Source: a virus (Duplodnaviria; Heunggongvirae; Uroviricota; Caudoviricetes). Taken from it: a stretch of 9,864 nt of DNA. Where the stretch lies: positions 1 through 9,864 of the IMG/VR virus record IMGVR_UViG_2663763339_000002. One strand, 5' to 3'. Under the pieces are notes generated by a model. It was not told the DNA's origin. It ran no database searches and worked only from the letters and a program-made list of their open reading frames with translations. Position 1 is the stretch's first letter, and each line of letters starts with the position of its first letter. This document shows positions 1-9,864 of the stretch, piece by piece. A program made the translations under genes and the position numbers.

Positions 1-291
1 TTAACGTCGTAACCGCTCCGGCTTCTTCCAGTGGTAAGTAATTTTTTCTTTCTCCTGGTACATCTGCACGCGGCGACGGTAGGCCAGCAACTCGAGAACT
101 CTGGTTCGTATATCGCGCATATCCACGCCGTTAAGCTCGATACCGTCACGGCGCATCACCTCAGCCACCACACGCGCGTAATTTTCTGCTATCACGCTGT
201 CTGGCTGCGTGGCCTCCTGTTTGCCTGCTGCTTGGCTGGCTCCGGTAATGCGGCGAATCATTTTGAGCATTTCGGCTTCGGTCATTGTCAT
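1..291 (-). CDS. Hypothetical protein, 96 aa, translationally coupled to the upstream small-terminase gene
   Basis: ATG at 289-291 overlaps the TGA of the upstream gene (ATGA junction on the minus strand); stop TAA at 1-3. No motif recognised. Confidence 0.5.
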   Translation of the reverse strand: MTMTEAEMLKMIRRITGASQAAGKQEATQPDSVIAENYARVVAEVMRRDGIELNGVDMRDIRTRVLELLAYRRRVQMYQEKEKITYHWKKPERLRR

Positions 292-773
292 GCCTGTTTT
301 GCATCCTCATTCACTGCGTCATTTTTTACCATCCGGCTGATAATCTGATTACACAAATCATCAATAATTGACTGCACTCTGTTTACTGCCATCGGTTTAA
401 GCCCTGCATCACGTGCCAGAATACTGGGGAGTTTTGCCAGTTCCTTGCTTACGATTTTTCCCCATATAGCCATCTCTTTTCGCGCATCATCGGCGGGTAT
501 GAGTTGCGCCGTTTCCTGTTCGAACTTAAGACGCTCACGCTCAGACTGATACCAGGCTTTGCGCTCATGTGCATCCATTTCGCCTTCTGCAACCGGCGTT
601 GGTAATGCCAGAAATGCCGACACAATATCTGCCACCCGGTAGAGCTTTAACTTGTCATGTCCTCCGGCGGGCTGGATGTTTTGCAGTCTTGCCGCCGCAG
701 TCTGACGACATATTCCCGCTATCGCCGCCAGTTGGTTAATGTTCAGCATCAGATTTTTCAGTTCTCGATCCAT
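288..773 (-). CDS. Small terminase subunit, lambda Nu1-like N-terminal winged-HTH (alternatively a packaging-redirection protein of the same fold)
   Basis: Start re-picked at ATG 771-773 (MDRELKNL...), preceded by GGAGGGGG; the ORF-track start at 830 has no RBS. N-terminus LNINQLAAIAGICRQTAAARLQNIQPAGGHDKLKLY parallels Nu1 (QLADIFGASIRTIQNWQEQGMPVLRGGGKGNEVLY), recalled from memory. Confidence 0.65.
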   Translation of the reverse strand: MDRELKNLMLNINQLAAIAGICRQTAAARLQNIQPAGGHDKLKLYRVADIVSAFLALPTPVAEGEMDAHERKAWYQSERERLKFEQETAQLIPADDARKEMAIWGKIVSKELAKLPSILARDAGLKPMAVNRVQSIIDDLCNQIISRMVKNDAVNEDAKQA

Positions 774-926
774 ACCCCCTCCGGAATGTTTTAAACATGC
801 ATCTTGCGAACAACTTTCAGAAGAGGTCAAAAAATGTGCTATATGTTGAACACAAAATAAGCAAAATTAACATACCAAAAATAAAATTCGTTTAAATTCA
901 ATACATTGAAAAGATGATGATGATGA

Positions 927-1007
927 ATGAAAATGCAAAAACTAGCCTTTTTCCGCGCCGCTCCCGCCCCGTGGTAAGGCCACTACACCGGGAGGACCCG
1001 TAAAAAA
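927..1007. repeat. Copy A of a conserved 81-bp intergenic element (copy B at 3451-3532)
   Basis: Direct alignment of the two copies at a constant offset of 2524 gives 4 mismatches in 81 positions. Contains nested dyad CTCCCG...GTGG-N5-CCAC...CGGGAG. Confidence 0.85.
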
Positions 1008-1023
1008 GGCGGCTATCGCCGCC
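1002..1023 (-). terminator. Intrinsic terminator after the protease-capsid gene
   Basis: Minus-strand RNA reads GGCGGC-GAUA-GCCGCC followed by UUUUUU (plus-strand A6 at 1002-1007), 8 nt after the stop at 1031-1033. Confidence 0.6.
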
Positions 1024-1030
1024 CTTGTTG

Positions 1031-2947
1031 TCATGCTCCACTCGATTTCAGTAGTCCACGATAATCGAGGGCCGCAACACCTGCATCTATGCGCACCTTC
1101 CAGGCGACACCATCAACAGTAAAGCCCTCCTGCTCCTCGAGATATGGCGTATCAATACCATCAAGATAAGCGACCTCTATCGTGTCCATCCCTTTCGCTG
1201 CGGCTACATACCACTCCTTGTTATTGTTCTTATCAAGACGTGGCTCAACAATAACTTCAGCCATATCTTTCACCACGTTAATGATGCCTGGGTTCTGATT
1301 GATAGTGCCCTCACCATCAACCGGAAAGAGTGATGACGATGACAGAATGGCGCGATGTGCGGCAGACTCCAGCGCGGCGGGGACCAGGACAAATGCGGGG
1401 GTAATATTCAGCGAATCACCGTTAGCGTCCTCCTGGAGGCGCATTAGCTTACGGGCTTCGTTAAGTCCCTCCATGTCCATATCCTTCGCAATAAGATTTT
1501 TATGATCGGCATGGAATAGCGCCTTACCATCCGTGAATTTGCCATTGCCGGTTAACAGGAGATACACCAGATTACCTACTGTTCTGGCGGCTGCACGCCC
1601 CATCGCCATGGGGATTGTAGTTAACTGGGTCAGGTCATCGTTAATAATGGCCTGGCGGGTAACAGAAAAAATATTCCCGTATGTGGCCAGCGCAATAGGT
1701 ACGCCCTTGTCACTGGTAGTAATGTATTTATATTCCGCGCCTTCCGGTACTTTATCCAGTTTTGAAAAACCATTCAGGCCAACGCGTTTTGCCTCGTGAA
1801 AGTTTGAAAGCGATCCGCTACGCGTCCACTTCTGGAACGTTTCGCCGCTGTCCTGCCAGCCTTTCAGCACTGATTTTTCAGCACCGCCAGCCAGAATATG
1901 AGAAAAATCACTGCTGCTGTGTGTAAAAGCTGCATTAACGACCTGCGAACGATTTAAAAAACCGCCAACACTGATACCACGATCGACCAGTGACGCCTGG
2001 GCCATTTCAAAAAGGCTCATCATCGCGTAAGGATTGCCACGCTCAGGACGCTCATACCCAAGACGGGAATAAAGGCCCTGGCGAATCGCATCGCCTGTTA
2101 TGTTCCCGTTTCCGGCATAAATATGAGACGGGATATTTTTATTTGTTGGTGTGTGGTTTTTACCCATTTCGTTAAGCAGACGTTCCCGGGCCATTTCCAG
2201 CGTACAGGATGCATCTTCAAGGCACGACATTTTGATCCCGTCGTACTGGTTGCCGAACACGCTAAAAATTTCTTTAATGCCGTTAATGCGCTCCTGGTCG
2301 CCTGTAATGGTGTTTTTTGCCTGTGATTTCGGCGGGGTAATCATTCCCTTAATGGTTTCCGGCATATGTAAAAAATCTCCTGTGCGTTTCGATTCAATTC
2401 GCGCCATTACTCTGACAGATGGCAACAATTCATCAGCAAAACCGTGCTTAAGGCATTCTTTCCCGTCCATCCAGGTTTCATCTTCCAGCATGGCGGCAAT
2501 TTCCTGTGCTGATTTGCCCGTTTTTCTGGCATAAGCAGGGATTAACACGGTTTCCACTTTATCCAGCAAATCAGCATAATCACGCATATCGCCAGCATTT
2601 CCGCCAGAGATACCCCACGGCTTATGGATCATCATCATGGCGTTCTCCGGCATAACAACGCGATCGCCTGCCATTGCGACGACCGAAGCCATTGAAGCCG
2701 CCACGCCATCGATATAAACCGTAATGTCTGCCGGATGATTCCGTAGCAGGTTATAGATGGCGATGCCTTCAAACACGTCACCGCCAGGCGAATGGATCCG
2801 TAGGTCGATATGTGAAACATCGCCAAGGGCTTTCAGATCTTCCGAGAACTGCTTCGCGGTAATACCGAAGCCGCCAATTTCTTCATAGATGGATATCTCC
2901 ACCGTTCCACGCACATCCGCCGCCTTAATGGAAAACCATGTTTTCAT
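1031..2947 (-). CDS. Prohead maturation protease (ClpP/S49-like) fused to a phage major capsid protein, 638 aa
   Basis: N-terminal about 180 aa carry ClpP-like motifs (IDLRIHSPGG, GVAASMASVVAMAGD, MMMIHKPWG). The C-terminal roughly 400 aa are assigned as major capsid protein by position and overall resemblance, not by a named motif. RBS AGGAG before ATG 2945-2947. Confidence 0.85.
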   Translation of the reverse strand: MKTWFSIKAADVRGTVEISIYEEIGGFGITAKQFSEDLKALGDVSHIDLRIHSPGGDVFEGIAIYNLLRNHPADITVYIDGVAASMASVVAMAGDRVVMPENAMMMIHKPWGISGGNAGDMRDYADLLDKVETVLIPAYARKTGKSAQEIAAMLEDETWMDGKECLKHGFADELLPSVRVMARIESKRTGDFLHMPETIKGMITPPKSQAKNTITGDQERINGIKEIFSVFGNQYDGIKMSCLEDASCTLEMARERLLNEMGKNHTPTNKNIPSHIYAGNGNITGDAIRQGLYSRLGYERPERGNPYAMMSLFEMAQASLVDRGISVGGFLNRSQVVNAAFTHSSSDFSHILAGGAEKSVLKGWQDSGETFQKWTRSGSLSNFHEAKRVGLNGFSKLDKVPEGAEYKYITTSDKGVPIALATYGNIFSVTRQAIINDDLTQLTTIPMAMGRAAARTVGNLVYLLLTGNGKFTDGKALFHADHKNLIAKDMDMEGLNEARKLMRLQEDANGDSLNITPAFVLVPAALESAAHRAILSSSSLFPVDGEGTINQNPGIINVVKDMAEVIVEPRLDKNNNKEWYVAAAKGMDTIEVAYLDGIDTPYLEEQEGFTVDGVAWKVRIDAGVAALDYRGLLKSSGA

Positions 2948-3263: not shown

Positions 3264-3450
3264 ATAAATATCCCGCCATCTGAACACGTTTTGATACAGG
3301 CAACTCCACCAGGCAGGTGAAAAACTGATTTATTTATATATTTCAATTAATTGCAAACTGGTCTAATGACAGGAGAGAAAAAAAATTGTACAGGTGAAGA
3401 CGGAAATAATTTTTAATTATCAATAAATTATCGCACATGCTGCCGCCGCC

Positions 3451-3532
3451 ATGAAAATACAAAAATCAGCCTTTTTCCGCGCCGCTCCCGCCCCGTGGTA
3501 AGGCCACTCCACCGGGAGGACCCGTAAAAAAA
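3451..3532. repeat. Copy B of the conserved 81-bp intergenic element
   Basis: See copy A; same orientation, abuts the terminator after ssb. Confidence 0.85.
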
Positions 3533-3548
3533 CCGGGAAAATCCCGGC
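3526..3548 (-). terminator. Intrinsic terminator after the ssb-like gene
   Basis: Minus-strand RNA reads CCGGGA-UUU-UCCCGG followed by U7 (plus-strand A7 at 3526-3532), 17 nt after the stop at 3565-3567. Confidence 0.55.
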
Positions 3549-3564
3549 TTCTGTCACTCGTTGC

Positions 3565-3987
3565 TTAAAACGGTATGTTATCCCCGTACGGATCATCATT
3601 TCCCGCCTGTTGTTTTGCCCTGTTCAGTGCATCAGTGGCCTGCCCCTGTTGGCCTTTTTTGCCGCCCGGTCGCGCCGTTCGCGCACTGATTACGCTGTCT
3701 GCGATAACCTGCCAGCCCTGCCGCGTTTCGCCGTTCTGGCCTGTCCACTGGCTTACCTGCATGTTACCCGCCACGCTCACGAGTTCGCCTTTGTGGTGCT
3801 TTGCCAGTGCGTCGGCCTGTCTGCCAAACGCCAGGACGGATAACCACATCGTCGCCGTTCCGTCATCGGCCTGGCTGCACGGCAGGGGAACCGCCATACT
3901 CGCCATCGCCATTTGTGTCCCTTTGCTGGTGGTCTTTAACTGCGGGTCAGCCACCAGCCGCCCGTAAGCCGCTATCTGTGCTGTCAT
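3565..3987 (-). CDS. ssb: Single-stranded DNA-binding protein (SSB-like), 140 aa
   Basis: N-terminal OB-fold pattern (IAAYGRLVADPQLKTTSKG; WTGQNGETRQGWQVIADSV) and C-terminal acidic tip ending DDPYGDNIPF, compare bacterial SSB DDDIPF. ATGA overlap with the upstream gene. Confidence 0.7.
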   Translation of the reverse strand: MTAQIAAYGRLVADPQLKTTSKGTQMAMASMAVPLPCSQADDGTATMWLSVLAFGRQADALAKHHKGELVSVAGNMQVSQWTGQNGETRQGWQVIADSVISARTARPGGKKGQQGQATDALNRAKQQAGNDDPYGDNIPF

Positions 3988-4235
3988 GCTGTCTGCTCTC
4001 CGGTTTTAACGTTGATGGTTGTCACCAGTTCCGCTTCGGCAATCTCCCGTTCTGTCAGCGTGGCAAAGTTTGCCGCCGCCGTGGTCATGAATGCGCTTAT
4101 CAGTTCGGGATGTGCTTTCGCGTATCCTTCTCCGGCGTGGCGGTCTATCGTTCTGATTGCCACCTTTAAGGCGTGCTCTGTCATGTCTAACGCTTTATAT
4201 TTTGGTGCTGTCTTATCTCTGGTTTTTCTTGTCAT
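3984..4235 (-). CDS. Hypothetical protein, 83 aa
   Basis: Start re-picked at ATG 4233-4235 (MTRKTRDK...); the longer track ORF to 4367 would translate the iteron repeats. Coupled to ssb by ATGA. Confidence 0.5.
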   Translation of the reverse strand: MTRKTRDKTAPKYKALDMTEHALKVAIRTIDRHAGEGYAKAHPELISAFMTTAAANFATLTEREIAEAELVTTINVKTGEQTA

Positions 4236-4237
4236 GC

Positions 4238-4448
4238 GCCCACCTGTGCCCACTTTTTCTGCCCACTTTTCATGGTTTCCCACTTCGTCCCACCTGGGAT
4301 TTTGTGGTTTTATATCGTACTGTTTCATAAGTATTTTTTTAGTGCCCACTTTTTGGGATGTATACACGTGGGAAAGTGGGCGATTTTGTTAAATTCCAGT
4401 TAAATTACCCACTACTCCCACTTTTAACGCCCACTTTTTACAGTGGGT
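4238..4448. repeat. Iteron cluster with AT-rich spacer: candidate origin of replication
   Basis: At least 8 direct copies of (G)CCCAC(TTTT) (starts about 4238, 4248, 4261, 4279, 4289, 4344, 4408, 4417, 4429) and inverted copies (GTGGG near 4368, 4376, 4444), with an AT-rich stretch at 4296-4340. Lies immediately 3' of rep. Confidence 0.6.
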
Positions 4449-5844
4449 GAACATCATCCCCATCGACGCAAATCACGCCGTCTTTTTCCAGTTTGGCTAA
4501 CCATCGTTTAAGGTGTTTTGTGTCATATCCCAGCTTTTTCATGTCATCACGTAGCAGCGGGATCGTACATTTATCACCATGCTGTATACGCGACCGGATA
4601 CAACCCCATAAAGCCGTGTGATTTTCCGTCTTGTTCCCGGCCTCCTCTATGCGCTCCAGTTCAGCAGGGGCGCGGGGAACGTCAATCACCACCATGGACA
4701 CAATCTCTTCGCCATCTGTATCGGTGAACACCTCCACGCTTTTAAGATCGTATGCACTCTCTTTTGGCTCCTCTGCGTCCTTCATCTTCGTACACGCCGC
4801 CACCAGTGCTGTAACCTCTGAATTTTCCCGGCTGATTCGGTACTCTGCATCAAGCGCGGCACGGAATGCGCTGGAACCGCGCGCCCCCTTTGTTTCATCC
4901 TTGCCGGAATGGTGAACCACCAGCACCGTGGCCCCTGTGGCCTGCTTTATCGCGTCACACCCCTGGATAAATGCGCCCATATCGCGGGAATCATTTTCAT
5001 CATTTCCACCAAAGCAACGGGCCAGCGTGTCGATCACAATCAGCCGCACATTTTCGCCCGTTCTGCTCTTAACAAGTCCGGCAGTCCTGATAACCTGCTC
5101 CACATAGTCAGGCGATGCGGGGAAGACAGGCGCGTTAACGATGCACAAATCTGTAACCACCTTGTCATGGGTTATCTCCCACGCCTTAACGCGGCGTTTT
5201 ACGCCTATACTGCCTTCGCCAGCGATATAGATAACAGCGCCCTTACTTACCCTGCGGCCTCCCCATGCCATACCTGTGGCAACATGGCACGACCAGGAAA
5301 TAGCCAGGAACGATTTATAAGAACCGCTGGCCCCGTAGGTGCTGCATAATGACTCAGCCGGAATAAGCCCCTTAATTACGTAGCTTTGCTGCGCGTCGAA
5401 TCCCTCAGAACCCCATGAGATGGGAAGTGTGATTTTTCGCTTTCCACCATTCATGACCAGACTTTCCCCGCGTTCCCAGGTTTCTTTAAGCCGCGGTAGT
5501 TGCTCGCTCCAGTCCTCCAGCAGTTCGAAATTCTCTGAAAGTAACCGTGCTTCCTGGACACCTGCGATCGCCAGTTTGGTGGCAATGGTCAGCATCTGCA
5601 TATCGTCCAGGTTTCCGGCGCGTATGACCTTTGCTCTGTATCGTCCTTCATCAACAATCTGTAAATTGTCCAGTTCGCTTAACTGATAACGGCCCAGGTA
5701 AACCGGAGGGATGGGATCGCCTGCTTTTTGGGCCTGTGCAATCATGTAATGTTCTGCAAAGGAGTGAGCATTATCACCCGCAAAAATAACCGCCTCAGTG
5801 TGTTTATCTTTCGGTAACAGTTTTACGTTCGGTGCCAGTTTCAT
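4438..5844 (-). CDS. Replication initiator, RecA-like (AAA_25-type) ATPase, 468 aa
   Basis: P-loop-like YGASGSYKS, Walker B-like VRLIVIDTL, sensor TVLVVHHSGKD; basic C-terminal region may be a DNA-binding domain. ATG 5842-5844 overlaps the upstream stop. Iterons directly downstream. Confidence 0.8.
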   Translation of the reverse strand: MKLAPNVKLLPKDKHTEAVIFAGDNAHSFAEHYMIAQAQKAGDPIPPVYLGRYQLSELDNLQIVDEGRYRAKVIRAGNLDDMQMLTIATKLAIAGVQEARLLSENFELLEDWSEQLPRLKETWERGESLVMNGGKRKITLPISWGSEGFDAQQSYVIKGLIPAESLCSTYGASGSYKSFLAISWSCHVATGMAWGGRRVSKGAVIYIAGEGSIGVKRRVKAWEITHDKVVTDLCIVNAPVFPASPDYVEQVIRTAGLVKSRTGENVRLIVIDTLARCFGGNDENDSRDMGAFIQGCDAIKQATGATVLVVHHSGKDETKGARGSSAFRAALDAEYRISRENSEVTALVAACTKMKDAEEPKESAYDLKSVEVFTDTDGEEIVSMVVIDVPRAPAELERIEEAGNKTENHTALWGCIRSRIQHGDKCTIPLLRDDMKKLGYDTKHLKRWLAKLEKDGVICVDGDDVHPL

Positions 5845-6155
5845 TTTGCCTTTCCCCGTTCACGAATAATTTCACGTACTGCCTTAATGCGTTCCATACC
5901 TGTAACGCGCATGATTCTGTCGATGTCGCTTAAGTCCGCTGGTGGTGCTTTGCTTACCAGGGTGAATTCACTCTCAAAACGCATATGTGACGACACGCAG
6001 GGATGCGCATAACCTTCGCGGATATATGTCACCCGATAAGCACTCACCGTTTTTACCGTTATCTGACTTCCGTAGTTATCCCGGAAAATATCGCCGGGGC
6101 GGATTTCAGGCCGAGCGGGGCCGCTGGCAGTAAAGCCAGAATTTTTCTTTTTCAT
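5841..6155 (-). CDS. Hypothetical protein, 104 aa
   Basis: ATG 6153-6155 with RBS-like AGAGGAA; coupled to rep by ATGA. Confidence 0.6.
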   Translation of the reverse strand: MKKKNSGFTASGPARPEIRPGDIFRDNYGSQITVKTVSAYRVTYIREGYAHPCVSSHMRFESEFTLVSKAPPADLSDIDRIMRVTGMERIKAVREIIRERGKAK

Positions 6156-6160
6156 GGTTT

Positions 6161-6370
6161 TTATTCCTCTGCGCGGGTCTTGTCGTGTATTTCCATAACC
6201 GCGTTTAATTCATCAATAACCGGGGTTAACAGAGTGCTGAAAGCAGAAAATAAATCCCCCCCCTGTTCGGCATGAACTTCGGTTAATTTAATTAATACCG
6301 CTTTCATTTCCAGTGCCCGGTTTAATGCATTCTCAGAATGAATAAGAACATCGAAAGGGATTTTATCCAT
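6161..6370 (-). CDS. Hypothetical protein, 69 aa
   Basis: ATG 6368-6370 preceded by GGAGGA; stop TAA at 6161-6163. Confidence 0.55.
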   Translation of the reverse strand: MDKIPFDVLIHSENALNRALEMKAVLIKLTEVHAEQGGDLFSAFSTLLTPVIDELNAVMEIHDKTRAEE

Positions 6371-6596: not shown

Positions 6597-6828
6597 AACC
6601 CCCCCCATTTTCACAATCAGTAATCAGGATGGCTTTAGCCTCATTCAGCGCCATATCAGCACTAAGTTGCATTACAGCCAGTGAGTGAGGAACGAAAGCC
6701 CCGGCATATTCTGTTTCAGTGGTGGCGTGCTTATGCGCTTTGTCTGCGATAACAGAAATATCAATCAGCGCATCCATCAGCGTTCTGATAGCTTCGGCGG
6801 CTGCGTCCGGACGGGTGTTATTGCACAT
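6589..6828 (-). CDS. Hypothetical protein, 79 aa
   Basis: ATG 6826-6828 preceded by strong RBS AGGAGG. Confidence 0.55.
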   Translation of the reverse strand: MCNNTRPDAAAEAIRTLMDALIDISVIADKAHKHATTETEYAGAFVPHSLAVMQLSADMALNEAKAILITDCENGGGYA

Positions 6829-7024
6829 GGCGTACCTCCTGACGAATACGGGCGGCGAATACCATCACGCAACCATCAGGAGATTGCTGGCGCGCTTCCT
6901 GTTCGCTGGTGGCCTCAATGGTAATCACGCGCGGTTGTGCCGTGCTCAGGGCGATAAAACGCCAGATGTATTTATTCAGGTTGTACGAGTCCCGCCCTTG
7001 CGGGTGTCTGGTATAATTTCTCAT
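6818..7024 (-). CDS. Hypothetical protein, 68 aa: the C-terminal part of the 354-aa track ORF; the rest of that ORF is judged spurious
   Basis: Internal ATG 7022-7024 preceded by GAGG; the downstream 68 aa have ordinary composition whereas the upstream part is Cys/Ser/Arg-rich and overlaps the plus-strand genes. Confidence 0.35.
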   Translation of the reverse strand: MRNYTRHPQGRDSYNLNKYIWRFIALSTAQPRVITIEATSEQEARQQSPDGCVMVFAARIRQEVRHVQ

Positions 7025-7104
7025 AGCTGCCTCGATACGCTTTCTATCGTTGGTAGTTAGACGCCCTGCATGTGTTGCGAGCACTGCGGGGCGTTGCTCT
7101 TTTA

Positions 7105-7156
7105 GGTGTATTTCACCTCTGCTTTTTAATTTACTCACTGGTGAAATACACTTCAA
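7105..7156. promoter_or_regulatory. Divergent control region: two inverted operator-like copies with a candidate minus-strand promoter
   Basis: GGTGTATTTCACC (7105-7117) and GGTGAAATACAC (7140-7151) are reverse complements and each is internally symmetric (GGTG-N5-CACC). Candidate minus-strand -35 TTGAAG (7151-7156) and -10 TAAATT (7128-7133) with a 17-bp spacer covering the second site. Confidence 0.45.
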
Positions 7157-7217
7157 GCCTTTTTTTATCATTTTTTTTGCGTATACTGACATACACCAAT
7201 TTTTAGGAGATCCAGAA

Positions 7218-7397
7218 ATGGCAACTGGTGCAAAGAACGCAAAATCACAAATGACAACTGTCAGAATCCCACATGAAGTAATGGATGATATTGAGCAACT
7301 TAAAGAACCTGGCGAAAGTACCGCTGGTTTTTTAGTTACTGCCGCAAAAGGCGAGATCAAACGCCGCCAGCGTCGCAAGGCCAAAGAGCAGGAGTAA
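7218..7397 (+). CDS. Small ribbon-helix-helix-like DNA-binding protein, 59 aa (candidate element regulator)
   Basis: ATG 7218-7220 preceded by AGGAGA; TTVRIPHEVMDDIEQL fits a beta-strand-then-helix pattern; basic tail KRRQRRKAKEQE. Fold is inferred, not searched. Confidence 0.6.
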   Translation: MATGAKNAKSQMTTVRIPHEVMDDIEQLKEPGESTAGFLVTAAKGEIKRRQRRKAKEQE

Positions 7398-7454
7398 CCA
7401 TCACCAGCGCCGTGGTGTGAGTAACTACGGCGCATTGCTATGCAGGACAACACA

Positions 7455-7628
7455 ATGACCGATAAAGAATTGACCAAAACATTATCACCGACACGGAAAA
7501 GACGGCGCAGAAAGATAGAGCATGAATCAGAAAGATTCGCGCCATGTGCTTTTGCCCTTGAGCAATTCCTTAAAGAGTACAGGGAAAAGCGCTCATTGCA
7601 GGTATGGCAACGAACTGAACCAGACTGA
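7455..7628 (+). CDS. Small basic hypothetical protein, 57 aa
   Basis: ATG 7455-7457 with AGGA 7 nt upstream (alternative ATG at 7440); RKRRRRK stretch; followed by a plus-strand terminator. Confidence 0.4.
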   Translation: MTDKELTKTLSPTRKRRRRKIEHESERFAPCAFALEQFLKEYREKRSLQVWQRTEPD

Positions 7629-7707
7629 TTGCATTGCCCACCAGCCGCAAATGTGGCATTGTTGGCGATGCTCATGCGTTGGGGATAACGCGAAATTTGT
7701 GTCGCAG

Positions 7708-7736
7708 GGCCACCGTGACTGGTGGCCTTTTCTTTG
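7708..7736 (+). terminator. Intrinsic terminator ending the plus-strand two-gene unit
   Basis: Perfect 7-bp stem GGCCACC / GGTGGCC with a 6-nt loop, followed by TTTTCTTTG. Confidence 0.6.
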
Positions 7737-7773
7737 CCTGTTATCCGGCAATAGTGGCGCTTCTTCACACAGT

Positions 7774-7856
7774 TGATATAATTCCCCTGCACTGATCCAA
7801 TTTTTTCGCAGCAGGTTAATTGTTCGCAAGGGCGCTCCGGTAACGGGGCGCTTTTT
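7774..7856 (+). ncRNA. Candidate small RNA unit: extended -10 promoter plus intrinsic terminator with no ORF between
   Basis: TGaTATAAT at 7774-7782; hairpin GCGCTCC-GGTAAC-GGGGCGC (7832-7851) followed by TTTTT; no ATG or GTG between. Convergent with the 3' end of alpA. Confidence 0.25.
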
Positions 7857-7886
7857 GTTATGTGCATCGCGTTACGCCTCACACCA

Positions 7887-8622: not shown

Positions 8623-9864
8623 TTACACGGCACGGATACCCCTTTTACCACTGGCTATGGTCACTCCGGTAGCTGCGGCCTCTACAAATTCCCCCCACCA
8701 GCGCATAAGCACCACGCGCTTTTCCAGGTAGTTACTTCGGTTATATGCTCGCCTTACCTCGTTTGTGTCCACGTGTGCGAGTGCGGCCTCGATTACGTCC
8801 GGCTCGAATCCTTCCTCGTTCGCTGCTGTACTGAATATGGCGCGTAATCCGTGAGACACCAGCACACCAGCGTAACCCATCCGGCGCAATGCGGCGTTAG
8901 CGGTCTGGCTGCTCATTGGCAGCATCGGGTTTTTAAGGCTGGGAAAAACGTGTTCCCTGTGTGCGCTGATTGGCTTCATGGTTTCCAGTACAGCCATAGC
9001 CTGACCGCAAAGGGGGATCACGTGGTCACGGCGCATCTTCATGCGTCCGGCTGGAATCGTCCATGTTTCGGCATCGAGATCTATTTCTTCCCAGCGTGCG
9101 GCGGCTGCTTCGGCTGGGCGTGCTACGGTCAGCAGTTGCCACTCAATCAGCAATCTGGTTTGCCGTTCTATGCTGGCGACCGATAAATCGTGCATTAGCT
9201 GCGGTAGCTGTTCCGGTCGGATGGTTGGCATGTGCTTTTTGGTGGGTGAGGGGAATGCCTTGCGGACGTTCGCGGCGGTGTTGATGTCAATCAGCCCACT
9301 GTTGGCAGCAAAATCCATCACTTCATTGATGCGTTGTAAAACGCGTTTCAGGGTTTCCAGGTTGCCGCGTGCTTTAATGGGTGTGAGTATCTCAACAAAG
9401 CGGCGAGCTGTGAGGGTATCTATTGGCGTGTTTCCGATGTACGGGAATACGTATTTTTCCAGGGATCGCCAGATATCCTTAATCGTGTTGTAAGCCAGAT
9501 TCTGGCCTTTTTTCATCTCGTACCAGTCCGAGGCAACTTTTTCGAACGTGTTGCCCTTTTTCCGACTCTCTGCTTCACGTTTCCGGCGTTCGTGGTCCTG
9601 TGGGTCAACTCCCTTCGCTATGAGTGACCTGTATTCATTCCGTCGTTCTCTGGCATCGGACAGGGAAACATCATTCAGCGATCCGAGGCTGATGATAGTC
9701 CGTTTTTTATCTGCCGGGCGGTAGTACGTAAAACGCCAGATTTTTGATCCGGAGGGTTTCACCAGAAGAAATAATCCTCCGCCATCCTGCAGGGTGTATT
9801 CCTTTTCCCCTGGTCGTGCGTTTTTGATCTCCGTAATAGTTAGTGGGGTGGTTTTTCGTGCCAT
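8623..9864 (-). CDS. int: Tyrosine site-specific integrase, P4 / CP4-57 IntA family, 413 aa
   Basis: N-terminus MARKTTPLTITEIKNARPGEKEYTLQDGGGLFLLVKPSGSKIWRFTYY is the typical arm-binding domain of P4-type integrases; catalytic-region motifs (TVARP, HGLRAIF, RAYNRSNY). ATG is the last 3 nt of the window. Confidence 0.9.
   Translation of the reverse strand: MARKTTPLTITEIKNARPGEKEYTLQDGGGLFLLVKPSGSKIWRFTYYRPADKKRTIISLGSLNDVSLSDARERRNEYRSLIAKGVDPQDHERRKREAESRKKGNTFEKVASDWYEMKKGQNLAYNTIKDIWRSLEKYVFPYIGNTPIDTLTARRFVEILTPIKARGNLETLKRVLQRINEVMDFAANSGLIDINTAANVRKAFPSPTKKHMPTIRPEQLPQLMHDLSVASIERQTRLLIEWQLLTVARPAEAAAARWEEIDLDAETWTIPAGRMKMRRDHVIPLCGQAMAVLETMKPISAHREHVFPSLKNPMLPMSSQTANAALRRMGYAGVLVSHGLRAIFSTAANEEGFEPDVIEAALAHVDTNEVRRAYNRSNYLEKRVVLMRWWGEFVEAAATGVTIASGKRGIRAV

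What the first reader, a model, noticed from the sequence alone, without database searches (positions are those of the whole stretch)
4238..4448. Iteron-type origin between rep and the 83-aa/ssb genes
At least eight direct and three inverted copies of a GCCCACTTTT-like motif flank an AT-rich core immediately 3' of the Rep gene, the classic layout of a Rep-dependent origin. The ORF-track reading frame across this region (N-terminal extension of the 83-aa gene) is therefore probably not coding.
Basis: partly seen in the sequence, partly recalled or inferred. Interest (0 to 1): 0.5.

Follow-up and report, generated by a model that had tools for sequence, protein, structure and literature searches.

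The report
Iteron replication origin of a PICI-type island
The 200-bp gap after the replication gene of this E. coli phage-satellite island is very probably its replication origin, an ordinary layout for such islands, and related islands point to one amino acid in the replication protein that appears to set which repeat it reads.

Summary
Window 4237-4449 holds 12 CCCAC cores, 9 on the + strand and 3 inverted, against 15 in the other 9.6 kb; 2000 simulated sequences never exceeded 5 per 210 bp. They surround an AT-rich core (4298-4342) and start at the stop codon of a 468-aa RepA-family (AAA_25, RecA-fold) helicase.

In 166 related loci the same slot carries repeat arrays, and the repeat core changes in concert across all copies (GTGGG, GTGAG, GTGGGGG, GTGCGGC). 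The core tracks one Rep residue, H444 here, just before the recognition helix of a predicted C-terminal winged helix: His or Lys with G, Asn with A, no contradictions. It is the only Rep column that fully predicts the class.

The N-terminal extension of the 83-aa gene is not coding. The experimentally studied cf-PICI EcCIEDL933 has an unrelated Rep body and unrelated iterons (TAACCCGCA) in the same slot, next to an 88%-identical 83-aa protein.

This matches the published SaPI/PICI origin layout. A catalogued PICI at the same yejM/tRNA-Pro site (EcCI11128) has the same Rep family.

Verdict: interpretation supported, in silico only. It is a new member of a known kind, of modest interest. One of the three inverted copies (4439-4449) is probably chance.

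The parts
4438..5844 (-). rep: 468-aa RepA-family helicase-initiator. It has an N-terminal ~130-aa domain, an AAA_25 RecA-fold ATPase (Walker A GASGSYKS at residues 171-178) and a C-terminal winged helix.
   Evidence: Pfam AAA_25 E=3.4e-43. phrog_2850 over the full length. PGAP name 'helicase RepA family protein'. Weak sequence match to RSF1010 RepA 1g8y, E=0.0015. Foldseek hits to T7 gp4, RAD51 and KaiC.
4441..4659 (-). Rep C-terminal domain (residues 396-468): predicted winged helix. The recognition helix is residues 445-454 (4483-4512). His444 is encoded at 4513-4515 (GTG on + = CAC).
   Evidence: AF2 model of the C-terminal domain alone: pLDDT 84.7, three helices plus a beta hairpin. All top Foldseek hits are winged-helix DNA binders: DtxR prob 0.96-0.99, Fur, PcaR, histone H1, MCM8 WH. 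Residue 444 is the only Rep column with normalised mutual information 1.00 with iteron class.
4406..4438 (+). Rep-proximal iteron set: three direct copies (TACCCACTACT 4406-4416, CTCCCACTTTT 4415-4425, CGCCCACTTTT 4428-4438). On the gene-sense strand they read AAAAGTGGG.
   Evidence: Orthologous positions switch GTGGG to GTGAG in concert in relatives.
4439..4449 (-). Doubtful 'inverted copy' CACCCACTGTA inside the last rep codons (His-Pro-Leu-stop).
   Evidence: It does not covary with the other copies and is variable (ACCAC, GCCGC, CCCGA, CCCTC) in relatives of either iteron class. Probably not part of the origin.
4383..4405 (.). Minor AT-rich spacer (ATTTTGTTAAATTCCAGTTAAAT).
   Evidence: The 30-bp window starting at 4380 is 70% A+T. 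An AT-rich spacer is present at this position in most aligned relatives.
4364..4382 (-). Two inverted iterons (CGCCCACTTTC 4382-4372 and TTCCCACGTGT 4374-4364).
   Evidence: (I1, I3, I8). The outer copy covaries (CCCACTTT to CTCACTTT) in all relatives; the inner one is less conserved.
4359..4366 (.). Conserved palindromic centre TGTATACA between the inverted iterons and the central direct iteron.
   Evidence: TGTATACA or TGTATATA in 10 of the 11 aligned origins, and GTATATATA in L010, whatever the iteron class. Palindrome I1. Function unknown.
4343..4353 (+). Central direct iteron TGCCCACTTTT, followed by its partial inverse (TTGGGA).
   Evidence: It covaries in relatives; in several Asn-type origins the partial inverse changes too (CCCAAAAAGTGGG to CTCAAAAGTGAG in L008, L009 and L145).
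4298..4342 (.). AT-rich core, the proposed DNA-unwinding element. It contains the conserved GTTTCATAAG / TTTTTCAAT block and a T7 run.
   Evidence: 30-bp windows starting at 4300-4310 are 73-80% A+T, the richest stretch of the 4200-4490 scan. Conserved in position across relatives. No DnaA box or IHF consensus at up to 1 mismatch.
4237..4297 (+). Rep-distal iteron set: five direct copies (CGCCCACCTGT 4237-4247, TGCCCACTTTT 4247-4257, TGCCCACTTTT 4260-4270, TTCCCACTTCG 4277-4287, GTCCCACCTGG 4287-4297). Start-to-start spacing is 10, 13, 17 and 10 bp. The first copy overlaps the SD-like AGGTGG of the 83-aa gene.
   Evidence: Concerted G-to-A switch in relatives. The SD overlap is read directly from the sequence (inference).
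3984..4235 (-). 83-aa conserved protein of unknown function (phrog_1231), always the first gene after the origin. Its apparent 44-codon N-terminal extension (GTG at 4367) is not coding.
   Evidence: phrog_1231 profile positions 1-82 of 83, E=1.1e-49. PGAP start. Upstream frame closed in many relatives. 88% identical in EcCIEDL933, which has unrelated iterons, so it is not the iteron reader.
3565..3987 (-). Island-encoded single-stranded DNA-binding protein, part of the replication module.
   Evidence: Pfam SSB E=4.1e-16. phrog_44. Found after the 83-aa gene in many relatives.

Best explanation
Window 4237-4438 is the replication origin of a ~10-kb phage-inducible chromosomal island (PICI-type satellite) integrated at tRNA-Pro next to yejM in E. 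coli.

Proposed mechanism:
1. The island's Rep is a RecA-fold (AAA_25, RSF1010-RepA-like) helicase with a C-terminal winged-helix domain. It binds the 9-11-bp iterons (gene-sense AAAAGTGGG, core GTGGG) through the recognition helix at residues 445-454.
2. His444, at the N-cap of that helix, reads the fourth core base (G).
3. Rep molecules bound to the five distal, three central and three proximal iterons assemble into hexamers on either side of the 45-bp AT-rich core (4298-4342) and melt it. They load themselves as the replicative helicase, without DnaA boxes.
4. The island's own SSB, encoded two genes downstream, coats the unwound strands.

What is shown: the repeat array and its statistics; its conservation in position; concerted iteron change; perfect covariation with residue 444; the predicted winged-helix fold; cassette exchange of Rep plus iterons.

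What is inferred: binding, melting in the AT-rich core, self-loading, and independence from DnaA.
For: - Density: 12 CCCAC cores in 210 bp against at most 5 in 2000 simulations.
- Conservation of the slot: the region directly after rep is the most repeat-rich 225-bp window in 141 of 166 related loci from Enterobacterales and two marine gammaproteobacteria.
- Concerted change: orthologous iterons switch together while spacers stay similar.
- Covariation: Rep residue 444 against dominant core gives His with GTGGG in 58 of 60 loci, Asn with GTGAG in 61 of 66, Lys with GTGGG(GG) in 25 of 29, and the RKS insertion type with GTGCGG in 7 of 8. The remaining loci have no array and none contradicts.
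- Specificity of that column: among the aligned columns of the last 330 Rep residues, over 112 distinct sequences, it is the only perfect predictor; the next best scores 0.60.
- Recurrence: helix pairs identical except His/Asn occur (EMKHFRRWLYK and EMKNFRRWLYK; EMKHFSRWLRK and EMKNFSRWLRK), and Asn with GTGAG recurs in Xenorhabdus and an Oceanospirillaceae MAG.
- Fold: the C-terminal domain is predicted as a winged helix at pLDDT 84.7, with residue 444 just before helix 3.
- Cassette exchange: EcCIEDL933 has a DUF927 Rep and at least 11 TAACCCGCA iterons in the same slot. Its 83-aa protein is 88% identical to the window's, and the Rep N-terminal domain is shared, so neither reads the iterons.
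- Literature: SaPI Reps read 5-6-nt iterons, 6-12 of them directly after rep and around an AT-rich region, through a C-terminal winged helix (PMC9371898). E. coli PICI origins have the same layout, and the EcCICFT073 rep-ori was shown to replicate (PMC6092414).
- Alternative site for packaging: a cos-like site lies elsewhere, at 3290-3524.
Against: - No experiment: binding, melting and replication are untested for this Rep family in any paper I could find.
- The residue 444 codon lies only about 75-290 bp from the iterons, so physical linkage and shared ancestry inflate the covariation. The sequences are not independent samples.
- The full-length AF2 model is poor (pLDDT 63.9). Foldseek E-values for the small C-terminal domain are weak (0.06-0.3), although the probabilities are high.
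- Iteron orientation differs from the SaPI description. Here nearly all copies point the same way, and only a central pair is inverted.
- 12 of the 166 loci show no clear array.
- The first iteron overlaps the ribosome-binding region of the next gene, so part of the array may also have a regulatory role.
Confidence: 0.85

Rival explanations
1. The array is a Rep-binding (or other protein-binding) operator. Its main job would be to control transcription or translation of the downstream 83-aa/ssb/packaging genes, or copy number by handcuffing. The origin would lie elsewhere.
For: The leftmost iteron overlaps the SD-like AGGTGG and ends 3 nt before the ATG of the 83-aa gene. rep, the 83-aa gene and ssb are co-oriented with no terminator on that strand, so bound Rep could act as a roadblock. 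Iteron-binding initiators of plasmids commonly autoregulate as well (established knowledge).
Against: No sigma-70-like promoter was found in 3900-4700 on either strand. The AT-rich core flanked by repeat sets is not needed for an operator. No other repeat cluster that could serve as the origin exists in the window. The published PICI origins sit exactly here (PMC6092414, PMC9371898). A regulatory side role is not excluded.
Confidence: 0.07
2. The repeats are bound by a protein other than Rep: the 83-aa protein, the DUF4222 protein, the AlpA-like HTH regulator, or a host or helper-phage factor.
For: The 83-aa and DUF4222 genes always flank the rep-ori cassette. One position of the 83-aa protein (Ala/Gln against Glu at residue 10) also differs between the nine GTGGG and GTGAG loci first compared.
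Against: The 83-aa protein is 88% identical in EcCIEDL933, where the iterons are unrelated (TAACCCGCA). DUF4222 proteins are identical (WP_000770163.1) in loci with GTGGG (L004, L006) and GTGAG (L008, L010) iterons. Only Rep residue 444 predicts the class perfectly, including in distant genera.
Confidence: 0.04
3. The region is the island's packaging (cos/pac) signal or another recombination site, not an origin.
For: Satellites need a packaging signal, and terminase small subunits often bind repeat arrays (established knowledge). The island encodes a DUF1441/TerS-like protein.
Against: A separate AT-rich intergenic stretch (3290-3524) matches the genome ends of lambdoid phages at 88-89% identity (records HannyBb, Tritos, cdtI) and holds a perfect IHF consensus at 3418-3430. 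That is the better cos candidate. The repeats covary with Rep, not with TerS: the packaging genes differ among loci that share iteron types.
Confidence: 0.02
4. The repeats are chance or compositional, or the stretch codes for an N-terminal extension of the 83-aa protein (127-aa ORF 3984-4367).
For: The frame is open from GTG 4367 in this window.
Against: The density is far beyond chance. The frame is closed 1-10 codons upstream of the ATG in many relatives. The family profile fits the 83-aa form end to end. PGAP annotates 83 aa.
Confidence: 0.01

Closest known systems
SaPI / PICI replication origins (SaPIbov1, SaPI1; E. coli EcCICFT073), as described in PMC9371898 and PMC6092414
   Same: The origin lies immediately 3' of the initiator-helicase gene. 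It has 6-12 short iterons with a 5-6-nt core, in sets around an AT-rich region, with some copies inverted. The initiator is itself the helicase and carries a C-terminal winged helix that sets origin specificity. There are no DnaA boxes. The element is a ~10-kb integrase-bearing satellite island. A catalogued PICI at the same yejM/tRNA-Pro site (EcCI11128) has the same Rep family.
   Different: The motor is a RecA-fold AAA_25 (RSF1010 RepA / SF4-like) ATPase, not the AAA+ superfamily-3 clade helicase of the SaPI Reps. Nine of eleven credible iterons point the same way, with one central inverted pair, rather than opposed sets on each side. There are two AT-rich spacers. Function is untested for this allele.
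cf-PICI EcCIEDL933 replication module (bioRxiv 10.1101/2022.09.08.507074)
   Same: Same gene order: DUF4222, Rep, iteron-filled gap, 83-aa protein (88% identical), SSB. The Rep N-terminal ~127 aa is 46% identical. That island replicates after helper induction, according to the paper.
   Different: The Rep body is a 710-aa DUF927 protein, unrelated in its helicase and C-terminal parts. The gap is 370 bp with TAACCCGCA iterons in both orientations.
Satellite phage P4 alpha protein with ori/crr
   Same: One polypeptide combines helicase and origin binding, the latter through a C-terminal winged helix. It reads short (8-bp) repeated sites, in a satellite of enterobacterial phages (my own knowledge, plus the discussion in PMC6092414).
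   Different: P4 alpha is a primase plus SF3-type helicase. P4 needs a second repeat cluster (crr) kilobases away, and no second cluster exists in this window. The iteron sequence is different.
RSF1010/IncQ RepA helicase with oriV
   Same: The helicase core is homologous (AAA_25; 1g8y at E=0.0015). The origin is iteron-based with an adjacent AT-rich region (established knowledge).
   Different: In IncQ plasmids a separate initiator (RepC) binds 20-bp iterons, and RepA has no DNA-binding C-terminal domain. Here helicase and origin reader are fused and the iterons are 9-11 bp.

Membership tests
PICI/SaPI-type origin | Located immediately 3' of the rep (initiator-helicase) gene | tested here: met
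   The first iteron (4430-4438) overlaps the rep stop codon (4438-4440). The position is the same in 141 of 166 relatives.
PICI/SaPI-type origin | Six to twelve short iterons with a penta- or hexanucleotide core | tested here: met
   There are 11 credible copies with core CCCAC (12 counting the doubtful one).
PICI/SaPI-type origin | Iteron sets flank an AT-rich region | tested here: met
   Five copies lie at 4237-4297, the AT-rich core (73-80% A+T) at 4298-4342, and six copies at 4343-4438.
PICI/SaPI-type origin | [quoted passage not shown] | tested here: inconclusive
   Two inverted copies (4364-4382) face the direct copy at 4343-4353 on the rep side of the core. The five distal copies all point one way. 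The arrangement is similar but not identical to the SaPI description in PMC9371898.
PICI/SaPI-type origin | Rep carries a C-terminal winged-helix domain that determines origin specificity | tested here: met
   The predicted fold is a winged helix. Residue 444 at the recognition helix covaries perfectly with the iteron core. Binding itself was not tested.
PICI/SaPI-type origin | A rep-ori fragment drives autonomous replication, and deleting the origin abolishes it | not testable with these tools
   This needs the plasmid maintenance assay used for EcCICFT073 (PMC6092414).
PICI (Gram-negative lineage) | A ~10-15 kb island at a specific att site, with integrase, an AlpA-type HTH regulator, a co-oriented replication module and packaging-interference genes | tested here: met
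   The island has an integrase, an HTH regulator, Icd-like genes, DUF4222, Rep, SSB, a protease-capsid fusion and a DUF1441/TerS-like gene, between tRNA-Pro/yejM and yejO. The yejM-luxR site and EcCI11128 are listed as PICI in the supplement of PMC6092414. Phage induction was not tested.
SaPI Rep protein family (AAA+ superfamily-3 clade helicase) | The ATPase belongs to the AAA+ superfamily-3 helicase clade | tested here: not met
   The only Pfam hit is AAA_25 (RecA-like). The nearest solved structures are RSF1010 RepA, RAD51/XRCC3 and T7 gp4. It works like a SaPI Rep but is not a homologue of its motor.
Classical iteron plasmids (pSC101, R6K, RK2, P1, F) | 17-22-bp iterons, an initiator without helicase activity, and DnaA boxes or IHF sites in the origin | tested here: not met
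   The repeat unit is 9-11 bp. The initiator candidate is a helicase. No DnaA box or IHF consensus at up to 1 mismatch lies in 4237-4438.
P4 ori/crr | A second cis-acting repeat cluster (crr) is needed besides ori; the iteron is TGTTCACC | tested here: not met
   There is no second cluster of the motif in the 9.9-kb window, and the motif is different.

The most novel reading that the evidence does not exclude
This Rep family would be a distinct class of self-loading initiator-helicase: a RecA-fold, IncQ-RepA-like motor fused to a winged helix, convergent with the AAA+ superfamily-3 clade Reps of SaPIs. A single residue at the N-cap of the recognition helix would set origin specificity (His or Lys for G, Asn for A at core position 4). 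A one-nucleotide codon change plus concerted iteron turnover would then create new, mutually non-interfering replicon types among co-resident satellites. Hybrid origins (L145, L149, L154) and a natural core deletion (L143) would be snapshots of that turnover.
Probability: 0.5. Interest if true: 0.5.

Novelty: new member of a known kind. Interest (0 to 1): 0.3.

Why it matters
The result gives a precise, testable origin annotation for an island family present in a large share of E. coli genomes: the rep/ssb segment (window 3500-6200) matched 1787 of 5426 complete genomes. It also shows that the apparent 127-aa ORF is an artefact.

The comparative data add a simple specificity rule (residue 444 against the iteron core). 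They also show that Rep and origin travel as an exchangeable cassette between conserved flanking genes. This bears on how several satellites coexist in one cell without cross-talk between replicons, and on building satellite-based vectors.

It does not change the picture of how PICI origins are organised.

Tried and rejected
- Promoter and terminator scan of 3900-4700: no promoter; one weak terminator-like hairpin on the non-coding (+) strand only.
- Rfam scan of the whole window: nothing.
- Folding the region as single-stranded DNA: z = -1.1, not significant, so no support for a hairpin-type (ssi or rolling-circle) origin.
- DnaA-box and IHF consensus searches: none in the origin.
- Whole-protein AF2 model: poor (pLDDT 63.9). 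Its Foldseek search gave only weak RecA-like hits, so the C-terminal domain was modelled on its own.
- Sequence searches of the C-terminal domain against PDB and NCBIfam: nothing.
- Phage collection search: no phage carries this rep-ori. Only the TerS-like gene and the cos-like stretch match phages.
- Literature: I found no paper describing iterons for the RepA-family (AAA_25) Rep of E. coli islands. Figure 2a of PMC6092414 may show some, but figures are not held.
- Look-ups that failed: NC_011745 (ED1a) is not in the collection, and a first guess at the EDL933 coordinates missed the island.

Full report
**Context**

The window is 100% identical to the chromosome of E. coli RM8082 over the 2.7-kb rep/ssb segment compared. 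It covers most of a ~10-kb island between tRNA-Pro/yejM and yejO.

All the main genes lie on the minus strand:
- integrase (8623-9864)
- an HTH regulator and Icd-like genes
- a DUF4222 protein (5841-6155)
- a 468-aa 'helicase RepA family' protein (4438-5844; Pfam AAA_25, E=3.4e-43)
- an 83-aa protein (3984-4235; phrog_1231)
- SSB (3565-3987)
- a ClpP-protease/major-capsid fusion (1031-2947)
- a DUF1441/TerS-like protein (288-830)

The supplement of Fillol-Salom et al. 2018 (PMC6092414) lists PICIs at this 'yejM-luxR' site. One of them, EcCI11128, carries the same Rep family followed by a ~200-bp gap and the small gene.

**The observation**

The 202-bp gap 4236-4437 is filled with CCCAC cores. 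Nine are on the + strand (starts 4239, 4249, 4262, 4279, 4289, 4345, 4408, 4417, 4430). Two are inverted (GTGGG at 4368 and 4376), and a third inverted core at 4443 lies just inside rep. Five copies are perfect CCCACTTTT.

The rest of the window has 15 cores in 9.6 kb. In 2000 Markov-1 simulations the densest 210-bp window never held more than 5, with a mean of 2.7.

The copies leave a 45-bp AT-rich core (4298-4342; 73-80% A+T in 30-bp windows) and a shorter AT-rich spacer (4383-4405). The array begins on the rep stop codon and ends 3 nt before the ATG of the 83-aa gene.

One caveat concerns the inverted copy at 4439-4449. It lies in the last rep codons and does not change with the others in relatives, so I do not count it as an iteron.

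**Coding or not**

The open frame from GTG 4367 is an accident of this variant, for three reasons:
- PGAP annotates 83 aa.
- The 83-position PHROG profile is matched at positions 1-82 by the short form.
- Among 81 related loci, the frame upstream of the ATG is closed 1-10 codons before it in many. In 13 loci the stop lies two codons upstream of the ATG.

**Comparative test of the origin idea**

I collected nine E. coli loci, 80 loci from one genome per species and 80 from IMG/VR. 166 of these could be analysed.

- In 141 of the 166, the 225 bp after rep is the most repeat-rich window of the locus. The median count of the best 6-mer is 7 there, against 3 in 2618 control windows.
- The gap keeps its length (192-203 bp in E. 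coli) and its architecture, but the repeat core differs between loci: CCCAC, CCCCAC or C(C/T)TCAC.
- Aligned origins show that copies at orthologous positions change together. Spacers can stay nearly identical; compare L007 with L145.

Concerted change of a dozen dispersed short sites is what a change in the specificity of one trans-acting reader would produce.

**Who reads the repeats**

In the Rep alignment the C-terminal ~70 residues contain the motif K-[H/N]-F-x-R-W-L-x-K-L.

Across all loci, the residue before the Phe predicts the dominant core:

| Rep residue | Dominant core | Loci |
|---|---|---|
| His | GTGGG | 58 of 60 |
| Asn | GTGAG | 61 of 66 |
| Lys | GTGGG(GG) | 25 of 29 |
| RKS insertion type | GTGCGG | 7 of 8 |

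The remaining loci have no clear array, and none contradicts the rule.

Among the aligned columns of the last 330 Rep residues, in 112 distinct sequences, this column (His444 in the window) is the only one with normalised mutual information 1.00. The next best scores 0.60.

Several observations argue against simple linkage:
- Helices identical except for His/Asn occur with the matching iteron change.
- The Asn/GTGAG pairing recurs in Xenorhabdus and in an Oceanospirillaceae MAG.
- The N-terminal domain comes in two allelic types that do not follow the iteron class.

His or Lys with G, and Asn with A, are the usual side-chain/base preferences (established knowledge of protein-DNA recognition).

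AlphaFold models place residue 444 immediately before helix 445-454, the third helix of a three-helix-plus-hairpin domain. pLDDT is 77-89 for this domain in the full model and averages 84.7 for the domain alone. Foldseek finds only winged-helix DNA-binding domains at the top: DtxR at probability 0.96-0.99, then Fur, PcaR, histone H1 and the MCM8 WH domain. E-values are weak (0.06-0.3), as expected for 70 residues.

**Excluding the neighbours**

The cf-PICI EcCIEDL933 has the same order: DUF4222, Rep, gap, 83-aa protein, SSB. Its Rep is a 710-aa DUF927 protein, and its 370-bp gap holds at least 11 TAACCCGCA repeats in both orientations.

- The 83-aa protein is 88% identical to the window's, so it cannot be the iteron reader.
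- The first 127 residues of the two Reps are 46% identical, while the rest is unrelated.
- Identical DUF4222 proteins (WP_000770163.1) occur with both GTGGG and GTGAG origins.

Rep body and origin therefore move as one cassette between conserved flanks.

**Other readings**

- Promoter or terminator: no sigma-70-like promoter and no gene-strand terminator lie in 3900-4700.
- RNA: no Rfam family matches.
- Hairpin-type origin: the single-strand structure is not significant.
- Host-factor origin: no DnaA or IHF sites lie in the origin.
- Packaging site: the better candidate is 3290-3524. It matches the genome ends of lambdoid phages at 88-89% identity and contains a perfect IHF consensus at 3418-3430.
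- Regulation: a secondary regulatory role remains possible, because the first iteron overlaps the SD-like AGGTGG of the 83-aa gene.

**Comparison with what is known**

The layout is the one described for SaPIs. There, 6-12 penta- or hexanucleotide iterons lie immediately downstream of rep, around a central AT-rich region. They are read by the winged helix in the C-terminal domain of a self-loading helicase (PMC9371898).

[quoted passage not shown] They showed rep- and ori-dependent plasmid maintenance for EcCICFT073 (PMC6092414).

The differences here are:
- The motor is a RecA-fold AAA_25 ATPase related to RSF1010 RepA, not an AAA+ superfamily-3 clade helicase.
- Iteron orientation is mostly uniform.

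The region is not a classical plasmid iteron origin: the units are short, there are no DnaA boxes, and the initiator is a helicase. It is not P4-like in the strict sense either, since there is no second crr-like cluster.

**Verdict**

The feature is a new, well-resolved member of a known kind of origin, and its function rests on inference from sequence comparison. The residue-444 rule and the cassette exchange are the only parts I could not find in the literature available to me. They deserve a simple mutational test.

Noticed in passing
window 3290-3524: An AT-rich intergenic stretch between ssb and the 85-aa ORF matches the extreme genome ends of lambdoid phages at 88-89% identity (HannyBb, Tritos, cdtI; record positions 1-204). 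It contains a perfect IHF consensus at 3418-3430. It is probably the island's cos site.
   Followed up: partly
window 5464-5844 (Rep residues 1-127); L173:44039-44420: The Rep N-terminal ~127 aa is 46% identical to the N-terminus of the unrelated 710-aa DUF927 Rep of EcCIEDL933. It also exists in two allelic types that do not follow iteron class. It looks like a shared adaptor domain of unknown function on two different helicase bodies. No Pfam or NCBIfam family matches it.
   Followed up: partly
L173:46193-46511 (E. coli EDL933, cf-PICI EcCIEDL933): The 370-bp gap after the DUF927 Rep holds at least 11 TAACCCGCA/TGCGGGTTA repeats in both orientations, next to AT-rich stretches. This is the probable origin of the experimentally studied cf-PICI. 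The cf-PICI preprint does not mention iterons (its text has no match for 'iteron').
   Followed up: partly
L143 (IMGVR_UViG_2541047774_000008), 3' of rep: A natural deletion. Only three or four iterons remain and the 83-aa gene follows directly, as if recombination between the proximal and distal iteron sets had removed the AT-rich core and the central iterons.
   Followed up: partly
L145, L149, L154 (IMG/VR), 3' of rep: Hybrid origins. An Asn-type Rep sits with GTGAG iterons near rep and in the centre, but with several GTGGGG copies in the set next to the 83-aa gene. This suggests recombination inside the origin, or unfinished iteron turnover.
   Followed up: partly
window 3984-4235: The 83-aa protein (phrog_1231) is strongly conserved (88% identity) between islands with unrelated Rep and origin. 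It is always the first gene after the origin, usually followed by SSB. Its function is unknown; it may be a replication accessory protein.
   Followed up: partly
window 6818-7882 (- strand ORF, 354 aa, GTG start): This long ORF is probably spurious. RefSeq annotates instead an Icd-like gene, a YlcI/YnfO-family gene on the + strand, an icd-like pseudogene and an HTH regulator in this stretch.
   Followed up: no
window 8623-9864: The integrase ORF is intact here (413 aa, with all arm-binding, central and catalytic domains found by Pfam). RefSeq marks it as a frameshifted pseudogene in the RM8082 record.
   Followed up: no
window 288-2947: The morphogenesis content of this ~10-kb island is minimal: a ClpP-protease/major-capsid fusion and a DUF1441/TerS-like protein, with no portal or large terminase. 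Relatives with the same rep-ori carry quite different capsid modules.
   Followed up: no
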